Source: Escherichia coli (GTDB lineage: Bacteria; Pseudomonadota; Gammaproteobacteria; Enterobacterales; Enterobacteriaceae). From it: a stretch of 64,000 nt of DNA. The stretch lies in assembly GCF_002854065.1 (NCBI RefSeq), contig NZ_CP024147.1. One strand, 5' to 3'. Each line of letters opens with the position of its first letter. Within the stretch, counting starts at the first letter, position 1. A program made the position numbers. This document shows, piece after piece, positions 51,401 to 54,400 of the stretch.

Positions 51401-54400
51401 TAAACCGTTTTATCGGGCGGGGTAATACGAGAGTGGACGGTCCTCTCGCCCCCTTGGGGAGAGGGTTAGGGTGAGGGGGCGTTCACCGTGCTTTCAACAG
51501 GTTAACTCCCCCTTTCTGAGAGGAAACAAAATTAACGCAGAATCTTCTTCTCAGCCAAATCCAGCGCAAAGTAGCTGAAAATCAGATCCGCACCCGCACG
51601 CTTAATCGAACCTAAGCTTTCGAGCACGACTTTCTCTTCATCTATAGCACCCGCCAGCGCGGCGAACTTAATCATCGCATACTCACCGCTCACCTGATAC
51701 GCGCCAATCGGCAATTCAGTACGTTCACGCAGCTCACGCACGATGTCGAGGTACGCTCCAGCAGGTTTAACCATCAGGCAGTCTGCGCCCTGGGCTTCAT
51801 CCAGCAGTGACTCACGAATCGCCTCACGACGGTTCATTGGGTTCATCTGATAGCTTTTGCGGTCGCCTTTTAATGCGCTTCCGGCAGCTTCACGGAACGG
51901 ACCATAAAAGGAGGAGGCGAACTTGGTCGAATACGACATAATCGCCGTATCTTTAAAGCCAGCAGCGTCCAGCGCCTGGCGAATCGCCTGTACCTGGCCA
52001 TCCATCGCGGCGGAAGGGGCGATGAAGTCTGCACCTGCAGCAGCTGCAACCACGGCTTGCTTGCCTAAATTTTCCAGAGTCGCGTCGTTGTCGACGCCAT
52101 GCTCGCACAGCACACCGCAGTGACCGTGAGAAGTGTATTCACAGAAGCAGGTGTCTGACATGACAATCATTTCTGGCACTGTCTGCTTGCAGATGCGCGA
52201 CATACGCGCCACCAGTCCATCTTCCCGCCAGGCATCGCTGCCGGTTTCATCGGTATGGTGAGAGATGCCGAAAGTCATCACGGAACGAATACCGGCGTTG
52301 GCGATGCGTTCAATTTCGCGTGCCAGATGTTTCTCTGGAATGCGCATCACGCCAGGCATGGCTTCAACGGCTTTGTAGTCGTCAATTTCTTCTTCAACAA
52401 AGATCGGCAACACCAGGTCGTTAAGGCTAAGTGTTGTCTCTTCAAACATAGCGCGCAGCGCAGGAGATTTGCGCAGGCGACGAGGGCGTTGGATTAAGTC
52501 TGTCATGGTCTGCCTGATGTTTGTGGAATTAAGGTGCACAGTATACCTGAAGCGGGGCAGGAGTGTTTTACGAAAGTTGTCACGATGTTGACAAGAAGAG
52601 AATGAAAGAGAGACCAGGGCATCTTTGTAATAGAAATAGCAATAACTTCATATTCACTGAAAATATTTTTTAATTTTTATTTATAGGTGCTGGTTATTAT
52701 TTTTGCCAATTTGGTTGAACTGTCAAAAATTGAATTACTTAAAGTTCATTGCTTATTGATACATTATTTGTCTGATTTGTTGTTTTGGTATTTTTAGGAT
52801 CTATAATTCAAAATTAATGATTTCATTAACGTGTTGAAATGCAGTGTTTTTGTCAACTTATTCTTTGTGCGTATAGATATTTTTATATATGTCCACAATC
52901 GGACTTAGGGGAAAGAATAATTGAACCATTCCTCTATAACGCCGCATAATCGTCAACGCGAAACATAAGATGTTTTCTATGCATTGATAATTGATGGATC
53001 AACTTATTACGTCCCTGAGGAGGGATGACAAATGCACTCCTGGAAAAAGAAACTTGTAGTATCACAATTAGCATTGGCTTGCACTCTGGCTATCACCTCT
53101 CAGGCTAATGCAGCGACCAACGATATTTCTGGTCAAACTTACAATACTTTCCATCACTACAACGACGCCACCTATGCTGATGACGTTTACTATGATGGTT
53201 ATGTAGGCTGGAACAACTATGCCGCTGATAGCTATTACAACGGCGATATCTACCCGGTCATTAATAACGCTACCGTTAACGGCGTGATTTCTACCTACTA
53301 TCTGGACGACGGTATTTCTACCAATACCAACGCCAATAGTCTGACAATCAAAAACAGCACTATTCACGGTATGATTACCTCTGAGTGCATGACTACTGAT
53401 TGTGCTGATGACCGTGCTACTGGTTATGTTTATGATCGTCTGACACTGAGCGTTGATAATTCAACGATCGATGACAACTACGAGCATTATACTTACAACG
53501 GTACCTATAATAATGCCGCTGACACTCATGTTGTAGATGTTTACGATATGGGTACTGCTATTACACTGGATCAGGAAGTTGATCTGTCCATCACTAATAA
53601 CTCTCATGTAGCAGGTATTACGCTGACTCAGGGTTATGAGTGGGAAGATATTGACGACAACACAGTCAGCACTGGCGTAAACAGCAGCGAAGTGTTTAAT
53701 AACACTATTACTGTTAAAGATTCTACTGTGACCTCTGGTTCATGGACTGATGAAGGTACTACTGGTTGGTTTGGCCATACTGGTAATGCCAGCAACTATA
53801 GCAACACGCTGACTGCAGACGATGTTGCAATTGCCGCAATCGCAAATCCGTATGCTGATAATGCGATGCAGACTACAGTAACTTTAGACAACTCAACACT
53901 GATGGGTGATGTTGTTTTCTCCAGTAATTTCGATGAAAACTTCTTCCCGCAAGGTGCTGACAGCTATCGCGATGCTGATGGTGATGTAGATACCAACGGT
54001 TGGGATGGCACAGACCGTATGGATGTGACTCTGAACAACGGCAGCAAGTGGGTTGGCGCTGCAATGTCTGTTCATATGGTTGATGAAGATGGTGATGGTT
54101 CTTACGACGGATATGCTGTTGGTACTGAAGCAACTGCAACTCTGCTCGATATTGCAGCTAACAGCCTGTGGCCTTCATCAACTGTCGGTGTTGATAACAT
54201 CAATACTCAATATGACGAAAATGGCCATATCGTAGGAAACGAAGTTTACCAGAGCGGTTTGTTTAATGTGACTTTGAACGGTGGTTCAGAGTGGGATACA
54301 ACAAAATCTTCTCTGATTGATACTTTAAGTATTAACAGCGGTTCCCAGGTTAATGTTGCAGACTCTCGTCTGATCTCTGACACTATCTCTCTGACTGGCG

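What the first reader, a model, noticed from the sequence alone, without database searches (positions are those of the whole stretch)
51426..51531. G-rich structured element between convergent tauD and hemB
The 106-bp gap contains CCTCTCGCCCCCTTGGGGAGAGG (stem-loop) followed by GGTTAGGGTGAGGGGG. It is probably a bidirectional terminator, but the G-tract composition is unlike the surrounding REP elements and may be a distinct small repeat family.
Basis: seen in the sequence. Interest (0 to 1): 0.15.

Follow-up and report, generated by a model that had tools for sequence, protein, structure and literature searches.

The report
Known BoxC repeat between tauD and hemB
The G-rich element between tauD and hemB is one copy of BoxC, a small dispersed E. 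coli repeat already described in the literature, so the finding is real but ordinary and not a demonstrated terminator.

Summary
The 106-bp tauD/hemB gap (51426-51531) holds CCTCTCGCCCCCTTGGGGAGAGG followed by GGTTAGGGTGAGGGGG. The window is E. coli O157:H7.

The element (core 51443-51478) is the ortholog of a published copy. It is "TMECO no. 5" of Holder et al. 2015 (K-12 388,664-388,699) and "HPGQ 13" of Kaplan et al. 2016. The family is known as BoxC, PIT or the triplex motif.

A 50-nt query finds a median of 17 places per E. coli genome and 14 in O157.

"Bidirectional terminator" is not supported. No T-run follows either hairpin, the consensus scan finds nothing in the gap, and published tests of these elements found no terminator activity.

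Three things are added here:
- The locus is polymorphic. 1819 of 5426 complete genomes, plus E. albertii and E. whittamii, carry an unrelated 39-bp hairpin spacer without BoxC.
- 236 genomes carry an extra 51-bp tandem unit next to the element.

Function remains unproven. The most likely reading is a tolerated structured repeat linked to local instability. Interest is low.

The parts
50574..51425 (+). tauD (taurine dioxygenase), last gene of tauABCD; its stop codon TAA is at 51423-51425.
   Evidence: ORF list; RefSeq annotation of the identical O157:H7 record.
51427..51441 (+). Left flank of the BoxC copy, ACGAGAGTGGACGGT. It matches the conserved left flank of the type A copies (acgNgcNcggaCgGT).
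   Evidence: Alignment of 16 type A copies from K-12 plus the window.
51443..51452 (+). Block 1 (C-rich), CTCTCGCCCC. K-12 has CCCTCGCCCC. The T at 51444 is the O157-lineage substitution. This is the 'G variant' of the block.
   Evidence: Pairwise alignment with K-12; Table 1 of Holder 2015.
51453..51455 (+). Loop 1 (CTT).
51456..51465 (+). Block 2 (G-rich), GGGGAGAGGG. It pairs with block 1 apart from one G.A mismatch and, in O157, one T.G.
51466..51468 (+). Loop 2 (TTA), which defines type A of the family.
51469..51478 (+). Block 3 (G-rich), GGGTGAGGGG. It is the third strand in the triplex model and the better Watson-Crick/wobble partner of block 1 in this copy.
51456..51479 (+). Canonical G-quadruplex pattern of four G-runs, GGGGAGAGGGTTAGGGTGAGGGGG. 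It is the only one in the window.
   Evidence: Regex scan; the core is identical to the HPG1 core of Kaplan 2016.
51479..51491 (+). Right flank, GCGTTCACCGTGC. It is atypical for the family, whose consensus is GAACAGGCCnGCA. CGTTCAC is the inverted complement of GTGGACG at 51433-51439.
51474..51513 (.). Second imperfect hairpin, specific to this spacer allele. It uses the last five G of block 3 (51475-51479) against CCCCC at 51508-51512, so it competes with the BoxC fold. It is followed by TTTCTGAG, which is not a T-run.
   Evidence: DNA and RNA folds; no terminator call.
51426..51531 (.). The whole 106-bp spacer, which is one of at least four length alleles at this locus (39/40, 106, 157 and 203 bp).
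51532..52506 (-). hemB (porphobilinogen synthase), convergent with tauD.

Best explanation
This is a type A copy of the BoxC repeat, also published as the PIT element, the triplex motif TMECO and the G-quadruplex group HPG1. It lies in the shared 3' region of the convergent genes tauD and hemB in E. coli O157:H7.

The element has three blocks: one C-rich block followed by two near-identical G-rich blocks, separated by 3-nt loops. When the strand is single, the C-block can pair with either G-block. Published in-vitro work shows the G-rich strand can also fold into an intrastrand purine-motif triplex or a G-quadruplex. In double-stranded DNA the duplex wins.

The most likely account of how it works is inferred, not shown. 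It is a tolerated, non-coding structured repeat that persists in gene-end spacers, where it does little harm. Its main measurable effect is on the DNA, as local instability from slippage, deletion or spacer replacement, rather than regulation of tauD or hemB.

In the tauABCD transcript it would form a strong 3' hairpin. That hairpin could slow 3' exonucleases as REP elements do. This step is untested.
For: Identity:
- The spacer matches the K-12 tauD-hemB spacer at 144 of 146 aligned positions.
- K-12 coordinates 388,664-388,699 are listed as TMECO no. 5, type 'A mm' and as '3' of tauA/B/C/D, 3' of hemB'.
- Kaplan et al. list the same site as HPGQ 13, tauD>>> / <<<hemB.
- BoxC is listed as a known 56-bp, 32-copy E. 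coli family.

Repetition:
- A median of 17 places per E. coli genome.
- The 21-nt G core is identical in 13 of the other 15 K-12 type A copies.
- The same core occurs in Azospirillum brasilense and Sinorhizobium meliloti replicons.

Structure:
- The + strand RNA of 51430-51492 folds at -33.7 kcal/mol, z -2.65.
- Across 47 distinct copies, the T variant of block 1 prefers block 2 in 23 of 23. The G variant, as here, prefers block 3 in 19 of 22.
- Triplex by NMR and CD (Tm 70-82 C), and no stable triplex in vivo by DMS: Holder 2015. G4/hairpin switching by CD on the type B oligonucleotide: Kaplan 2016.

Instability at this locus:
- 1819 genomes carry an unrelated 39-bp spacer.
- 3565 carry the BoxC spacer. 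Of these, 236 have a second 51-bp unit and one has three.
- The adk-hemH BoxC locus shows the same block replacement.
Against: - No experiment on this copy exists in what I could read.
- The O157 copy has an extra C-to-T change in block 1 (51444) that was not among the oligonucleotides tested in vitro.
- The association with instability is correlative, both in Holder 2015 and here. Spacers at gene ends may simply be free to vary.
- Near-perfect conservation of the 21-nt core across Alpha- and Gammaproteobacteria is hard to reconcile with a purely neutral element. It suggests either a function or active spread.
- I found no clean insertion with target-site duplication. The mode of spread is therefore unknown.
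Confidence: 0.75

Rival explanations
1. Bidirectional intrinsic terminator. The hairpins in the gap would stop RNA polymerase coming from tauD and from hemB.
For: - The element sits between convergent genes.
- Stable hairpins are predicted on both strands.
- 7 of the 13 single K-12 copies lie between convergent genes.
- The alternative 39-bp allele is a perfect 10-bp hairpin with z about -3.3 on both strands. This suggests the position needs some hairpin.
Against: - No T/U-run follows the BoxC hairpin on either strand.
- The second hairpin is followed only by TTTCT.
- The consensus scan finds no terminator-like site in the gap.
- PIT elements showed no terminator or promoter activity (Hoyne & Maher 2002, as reported).
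- Copies also occur inside operons such as pstA-pstB and upstream of genes.
Confidence: 0.1
2. Non-autonomous mobile element (MITE- or REPIN-like). BoxC would spread by an unknown transposase or single-strand mechanism, and this copy would be an insertion.
For: - Conservation extends beyond the structural core into the flanks.
- Copies are dispersed, often as inverted A+B doublets.
- The core is near-identical in distant genera and on plasmids.
- Presence/absence polymorphism occurs at tauD-hemB and at adk-hemH.
- The outgroups E. albertii and E. whittamii lack it at this locus.
Against: - At both polymorphic loci the whole segment from the stop codon onward is replaced. There is no clean insertion and no target-site duplication.
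- No associated transposase is known.
- Holder et al. found no association with transposons, phages or plasmids.
- Only 3 phage records have any match.
Confidence: 0.15
3. Regulatory G-quadruplex/hairpin switch (the Kaplan et al. model). Ion- or protein-dependent switching of the G-rich strand would modulate transcription of neighbouring genes.
For: - The canonical G4 pattern lies at 51456-51479.
- CD shows K+-dependent G4 and Mg2+/Li+ hairpin signatures for the sister type B oligonucleotide.
Against: - NMR of the TMECO oligonucleotides indicates a triplex, not a G4.
- With the complementary strand present, the duplex forms.
- Holder 2015 found no link to gene function or to distance from ORFs.
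- Here the element lies at the 3' ends of both genes, not at a promoter.
- A third of E. coli genomes do without it at this locus.
Confidence: 0.05
4. Rho-loading site for hemB. Read from the hemB side, the element gives a 24-nt C-rich, G-free RNA stretch (CCCCCUCACCCUAACCCUCUCCCC) that could act as part of a rut site. hemB would then end by Rho-dependent termination.
For: - Sequence composition of the minus strand.
- No intrinsic terminator for hemB in the gap.
- The minus-strand RNA is less structured, with z -1.43.
Against: - This rests on composition alone, and the stretch is shorter than typical rut regions.
- Family members show no orientation bias relative to genes.
- There are no data on Rho at this site.
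Confidence: 0.05

Closest known systems
BoxC / PIT element / TMECO intrastrand triplex motif, type A 'mm' (Bachellier et al. 1999; Hoyne et al. 2000; Holder et al. 2015)
   Same: - Same three-block sequence.
- 35 of 36 bases identical to K-12 TMECO no. 5 at the orthologous tauD-hemB site.
- Same TTA second loop.
- Same G.A mismatch position.
- Intergenic and multi-copy.
   Different: - The O157 lineage has C to T at 51444 in block 1. This adds a T.G to the block 1/block 2 register.
- The right flank differs from the family consensus.
HPG1 G-quadruplex group (Kaplan et al. 2016)
   Same: The 21-nt core GGGAGAGGGTTAGGGTGAGGG is identical. The site is listed as HPGQ 13 between tauD and hemB.
   Different: It is the same object under another structural interpretation. 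The CD data in that paper were obtained on the sister group HPG2, not on HPG1.
REP / BIME elements
   Same: Short, GC-rich, structured, dispersed repeats. They are enriched at gene ends and between convergent genes, and often occur as inverted pairs of two subtypes.
   Different: - No sequence similarity to the REP consensus.
- Three-block rather than simple palindrome architecture.
- About 20 copies rather than hundreds.
- No known RAYT-type transposase, gyrase, IHF or Pol I binding.
Rho-independent (intrinsic) terminator
   Same: A GC-rich hairpin at the 3' end of genes.
   Different: No U-tract follows. Published tests of the family found no terminator activity.

Membership tests
BoxC / PIT / TMECO | Three consecutive blocks (C-rich, G-rich, G-rich) of about 9-10 nt with loops of 1-6 nt, compatible with C-G*G / T-A*T triads. 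| tested here: met
   Sequence at 51443-51478. It aligns block for block with Table 1 no. 5 of Holder 2015.
BoxC / PIT / TMECO | Sequence match to the family consensus. | tested here: met
   The G core is 21 of 21 identical to 13 of the other 15 K-12 type A copies. 35 of 36 bases match the K-12 ortholog.
BoxC / PIT / TMECO | Multi-copy, dispersed, intergenic. | tested here: met
   Median of 17 places per genome and 14 in O157. All 18 K-12 loci inspected are intergenic.
BoxC / PIT / TMECO | Conserved flanks of the 56-bp BoxC unit. | tested here: inconclusive
   The left flank fits the type A consensus. The right flank does not, and resembles only two other K-12 copies. I could not read the original 56-bp BoxC consensus.
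BoxC / PIT / TMECO | Forms an intrastrand triplex as an isolated strand. | not testable with these tools
   NMR and CD were published for K-12 type A, B and mm oligonucleotides. The O157 variant with T at 51444 was not tested.
Intrinsic terminator | GC-rich stem-loop immediately followed by a run of T/U. | tested here: not met
   No site in the gap in the consensus scan. The bases after the hairpins are GTTAGGG, TTTCTGAG, TCACCC and ACCGTCC.
REP / BIME | REP consensus palindrome (GCCGGATGCGGCG-type). | tested here: not met
   The REP pattern is found at many other window sites but not at 51426-51531.
G-quadruplex motif | Four runs of at least 3 G separated by 1-7 nt. | tested here: met
   51456-51479. 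One such pattern per 64 kb is not more than shuffles give (mean 1.6).
MITE / REPIN-type mobile element | Precise insertion boundaries with a target-site duplication, and filled versus empty sites. | tested here: not met
   At tauD-hemB and adk-hemH, the alleles with and without BoxC differ by replacement of the whole segment. No duplication is seen.
Rfam RNA families | Match to any curated covariance model. | tested here: not met
   The only hit in 50000-53200 is a chance snoRNA match inside hemB at E = 7.9.

The most novel reading that the evidence does not exclude
The single variable base of the C-block (T or G) may act as a selector that decides which of the two G-blocks is its partner. BoxC would then exist in two structural states across the family. 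Its 21-nt core, identical from E. coli to Azospirillum and Sinorhizobium, would be kept by an unidentified protein or mobilisation machinery that recognises the folded single strand. BoxC-containing spacers would then be exchanged as cassettes at gene ends.
Probability: 0.08. Interest if true: 0.5.

Novelty: already known. Interest (0 to 1): 0.1.

Why it matters
It matters little for new biology. The element, its family and this exact locus are already in the literature, and its function has resisted two decades of tests.

It is useful in three smaller ways:
- As an annotation point. RefSeq leaves it unannotated, and it should not be called a terminator.
- As a clean natural experiment. One third of E. 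coli genomes carry a different 39-bp hairpin spacer at the same position, so the effect of BoxC on tauD and hemB 3' ends could be measured by allele comparison.
- As one more example of indel and tandem-duplication activity right next to a BoxC element.

Tried and rejected
- **Rfam scan of 50000-53200:** nothing relevant.
- **Terminator/promoter consensus scan:** nothing in the gap.
- **Whole-gap folding:** not better than shuffles.
- **G4 pattern as a chance test:** not above the shuffle expectation.
- **Experimental 3'-end data for tauD/hemB:** the TERMITe Term-seq supplements contain neither gene. A 2026 REP preprint does not mention BoxC or hemB.
- **A full-text hit for 'boxC' in a HusR paper:** it had no such term in the main text.
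- **Column-wise pair counting on an alignment of 45 of the 47 distinct copies (two left out unintentionally):** abandoned, because MAFFT left it ungapped and block 1 sits in different registers. It was replaced by per-sequence constrained folding of all 47.
- **Evidence of clean insertion at two polymorphic loci:** none found.
- **The O157 variant in Holder's supplement:** not found, but the stored file is truncated, so this is uninformative.

Full report
**Observation**

The window matches E. coli O157:H7 chromosomes at 100% identity over 51000-52000, with tauD and hemB annotated under the match.
- tauD ends at 51425, and the hemB stop codon begins at 51532 on the minus strand. The gap is therefore exactly 51426-51531.
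- Folding the whole 106 nt is not better than dinucleotide shuffles, with z -0.89 on the + strand and -1.57 on the - strand.
- The G-run pattern is the only canonical G4 pattern in the window, but shuffles give 1.6 on average. Structure and composition alone would therefore not single the site out.

**Repetition**

The 50-nt core finds 87,845 places in 5425 of 5426 complete E. coli genomes. The median is 17 per genome, the maximum 32, and O157:H7 has 14. The motif is unique in the 64-kb window but is a genuine dispersed repeat genome-wide.

**Identity**

A full-text search for the sequence led to two papers.
- Holder et al. 2015 (PMC4666352) state that the motif was "earlier described as BoxC". 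They also say it was rediscovered as the potential intrastrand triplex (PIT) element by Hoyne et al. 2000.
- Their Table 1 lists 23 copies in K-12. No. 5 is CCCTCGCCCCCTTGGGGAGAGGGTTAGGGTGAGGGG at 388,664-388,699, type "A mm".
- In NC_000913.3 tauD ends at 388,646 and hemB starts at 388,753. Their supplement describes the site as 3' of tauA/B/C/D and 3' of hemB.
- Kaplan et al. 2016 (PMC5100583) list the same site as HPGQ 13 of group HPG1, between tauD>>> and <<<hemB.
- Petrillo et al. 2008 (PMC2267715) list BoxC as a known E. coli family of 56 bp and 32 copies.
- The window and K-12 spacers differ at only two positions in 146: T versus C at 51444 and G versus A at 51490.

**Anatomy**

The core reads as follows:

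| Part | Coordinates | Sequence |
|---|---|---|
| Block 1 | 51443-51452 | CTCTCGCCCC |
| Loop 1 | 51453-51455 | CTT |
| Block 2 | 51456-51465 | GGGGAGAGGG |
| Loop 2 | 51466-51468 | TTA |
| Block 3 | 51469-51478 | GGGTGAGGGG |

I fetched all 18 K-12 loci of Table 1 and aligned the copies. Conservation extends beyond the 36-nt triplex motif, by about 17 nt on the left (acgNgcNcggaCgGT) and about 12-15 nt on the right (GAACAGGCCnGCA). The window copy has a typical left flank and an atypical right flank. In this copy GTGGACG (51433-51439) and CGTTCAC (51480-51486) are complementary and extend the hairpin.

A second imperfect hairpin (51474-51513) reuses the last five G of block 3. It belongs to this spacer allele, not to the family.

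**Which stem?**

I folded 47 distinct copies from K-12, other Enterobacteriaceae, Azospirillum and Sinorhizobium under two constraints.
- With the T variant of block 1 (CCCTCTCCC), the block 1:2 hairpin is more stable in 23 of 23 copies.
- With the G variant (CCCCTCGCCCC, as here), the block 1:3 hairpin, using a G.U or G.T wobble, is more stable in 19 of 22 copies with RNA parameters and 15 of 22 with DNA parameters.
- For the window copy the values are -15.2 kcal/mol (1:2), -19.8 (1:3) and -24.8 (unconstrained).

The + strand RNA of 51430-51492 folds at -33.7 kcal/mol (z -2.65). The minus strand folds at only -21.8 (z -1.43).

**Published structure and function data**
- Isolated G-rich strands form a stable triplex by NMR and CD, with Tm 70-82 C.
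- With the complementary strand the duplex forms, and in vivo DMS footprinting did not show a stable triplex.
- CD on the sister type B oligonucleotide suggests K+-dependent G4 and Mg2+/Li+-dependent hairpin states.
- PIT elements showed no promoter or terminator activity and no effect on RNA polymerase in the tests of Hoyne & Maher 2002, as reported by Holder et al..
- Holder et al. found no link to gene class, distance or operon position, but did find more sequence variability around the elements than around controls.

**Terminator hypothesis**

On the + strand the BoxC hairpin is followed by GTTAGGG or CGTTCAC, and the second hairpin by TTTCTGAG. On the minus strand the hairpins are followed by TCACCC and ACCGTCC. 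The consensus scan finds two terminator-like sites in 51000-52000, both inside tauD and none in the gap. I found no 3'-end mapping data for these genes. Together with the published negative assays, the terminator reading is not supported, although it has not been tested at this locus.

**The locus is polymorphic**

| Spacer allele | Length | Where found |
|---|---|---|
| No BoxC; perfect 10-bp hairpin ATGCCGGGTT-GGAT-AACCCGGCAT (z about -3.3 on both strands) | 39-40 bp | 1819 E. coli genomes; E. albertii; E. whittamii |
| BoxC spacer, all lengths | 106-203 bp | 3565 E. coli genomes |
| BoxC spacer with a second 51-bp unit | 157 bp | 236 of the 3565 |
| BoxC spacer with three 51-bp units | 203 bp | One genome of the 5426-genome set; Escherichia sp. 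E1V33 (separate collection) |

- A 301-bp query centred on the gap covers at least 80% in only 3600 of 5426 genomes.
- The 39-bp spacer is unrelated to the BoxC spacer from stop codon to stop codon.
- Its presence in E. albertii and E. whittamii suggests that it is the older state in Escherichia. This is an inference.
- Each 51-bp unit starts with the tauD stop codon, the BoxC left flank and the first half of block 1. This is the pattern expected from slippage or unequal exchange at the element.
- In the E1V33 copy, block 3 is partly deleted.

A second BoxC locus behaves the same way. At adk-hemH, 2913 genomes have the K-12 allele. Most of the remainder (two were fetched and aligned) replace 161 bp with an unrelated 57 bp, starting right after the adk stop codon. 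The zntA-tusA copy is present in 5148 genomes. I saw neither clean insertions nor target-site duplications.

**Distribution**
- In Citrobacter the tauD-hemB gap holds REP-like palindromes and no BoxC.
- In Pseudocitrobacter the gap holds a BoxC doublet.
- In Enterobacter, Leclercia, Silvania and Kluyvera, BoxC singlets or doublets lie directly after tauD, although the neighbouring gene differs.
- Plasmid and chromid records of Klebsiella, Sinorhizobium, Azospirillum, Rhizobium and Aeromonas carry matches.
- The 21-nt G core is identical in A. brasilense p1 and S. meliloti pSymB.
- Only three phage records match.
- This agrees with the published statement that the motif occurs in more than 260 genomes.

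**Verdict**

The "distinct repeat family" idea is right but describes a family known since the 1990s. This exact copy is catalogued in two papers, and the terminator idea is not supported.

The most likely reading is a tolerated structured repeat whose clearest effect is local spacer instability. Its function is otherwise unproven.

They are the block-1 variant rule, the allele frequencies at tauD-hemB with the likely ancestral 39-bp hairpin, and the 51-bp tandem unit.

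Noticed in passing
L023 2350-2476; L021 397-553; window 51423-51447: A 51-bp tandem unit abuts the BoxC element at tauD-hemB. 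It consists of the tauD stop codon, the BoxC left flank, the first half of the C-block and 26 unrelated bases. There is one copy in O157 and K-12, two in 236 E. coli genomes and three in Escherichia sp. E1V33.
   Followed up: partly
L020 397-435; L022 397-435; L025 and L027 (just after the tauD stop): The alternative 39-40-bp tauD-hemB spacer is a perfect 10-bp hairpin with no BoxC. It occurs in 1819 E. coli genomes, E. albertii and E. whittamii. It is likely the ancestral state and a better candidate for a two-way hairpin than the BoxC spacer.
   Followed up: partly
L006 221-381 versus L105/L106 222-278: The adk-hemH BoxC locus is also polymorphic. About 2500 genomes, apparently including O157-like strains, replace the 161-bp K-12 segment (BoxC plus a canonical terminator hairpin GGCCG..CGGCCTTTT) with an unrelated 57-bp segment.
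   Followed up: partly
window 12532-13200: An array of about eight REP pairs with a period of about 94 bp, which looks like a large BIME cluster. Further REP clusters lie at 35006-35336 and at scattered sites.
   Followed up: no
MG065686.1 141094-141137; MG065691.1 32986-33029 (phage collection): Two Campylobacter jejuni phages carry 44-nt matches of 91% identity to the enterobacterial BoxC core, at two places each. This is unexpected for that host.
   Followed up: no
L088; L024; L029: A contig labelled Chryseobacterium sp. 18061 carries an enterobacterial tauD-hemB pair with 88% TauD identity. A 'Citrobacter sp.' MAG holds both an E. coli-like and a Citrobacter-like tauD contig. These are probably mislabelling or contamination.
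   Followed up: no
L056, L058, L059, L064, L067-L069, L073, L077, L079, L081, L082, L086, L087 (just after the tauD stop): In several other genera the 3' side of tauD is occupied by BoxC singlets or A+B doublets in various orientations, although the downstream gene is often not hemB. The same gene end has been occupied repeatedly.
   Followed up: partly
(Holder 2015 supplement): Published TMECO counts vary widely between lineages: 1 in O127:H6 E2348/69, 6 in O7:K1 CE10, 10-11 in O157:H7 and 28-29 in O26, O111 and O104:H4. This fits the absence of the tauD-hemB copy in strains such as BEN2908.
   Followed up: no
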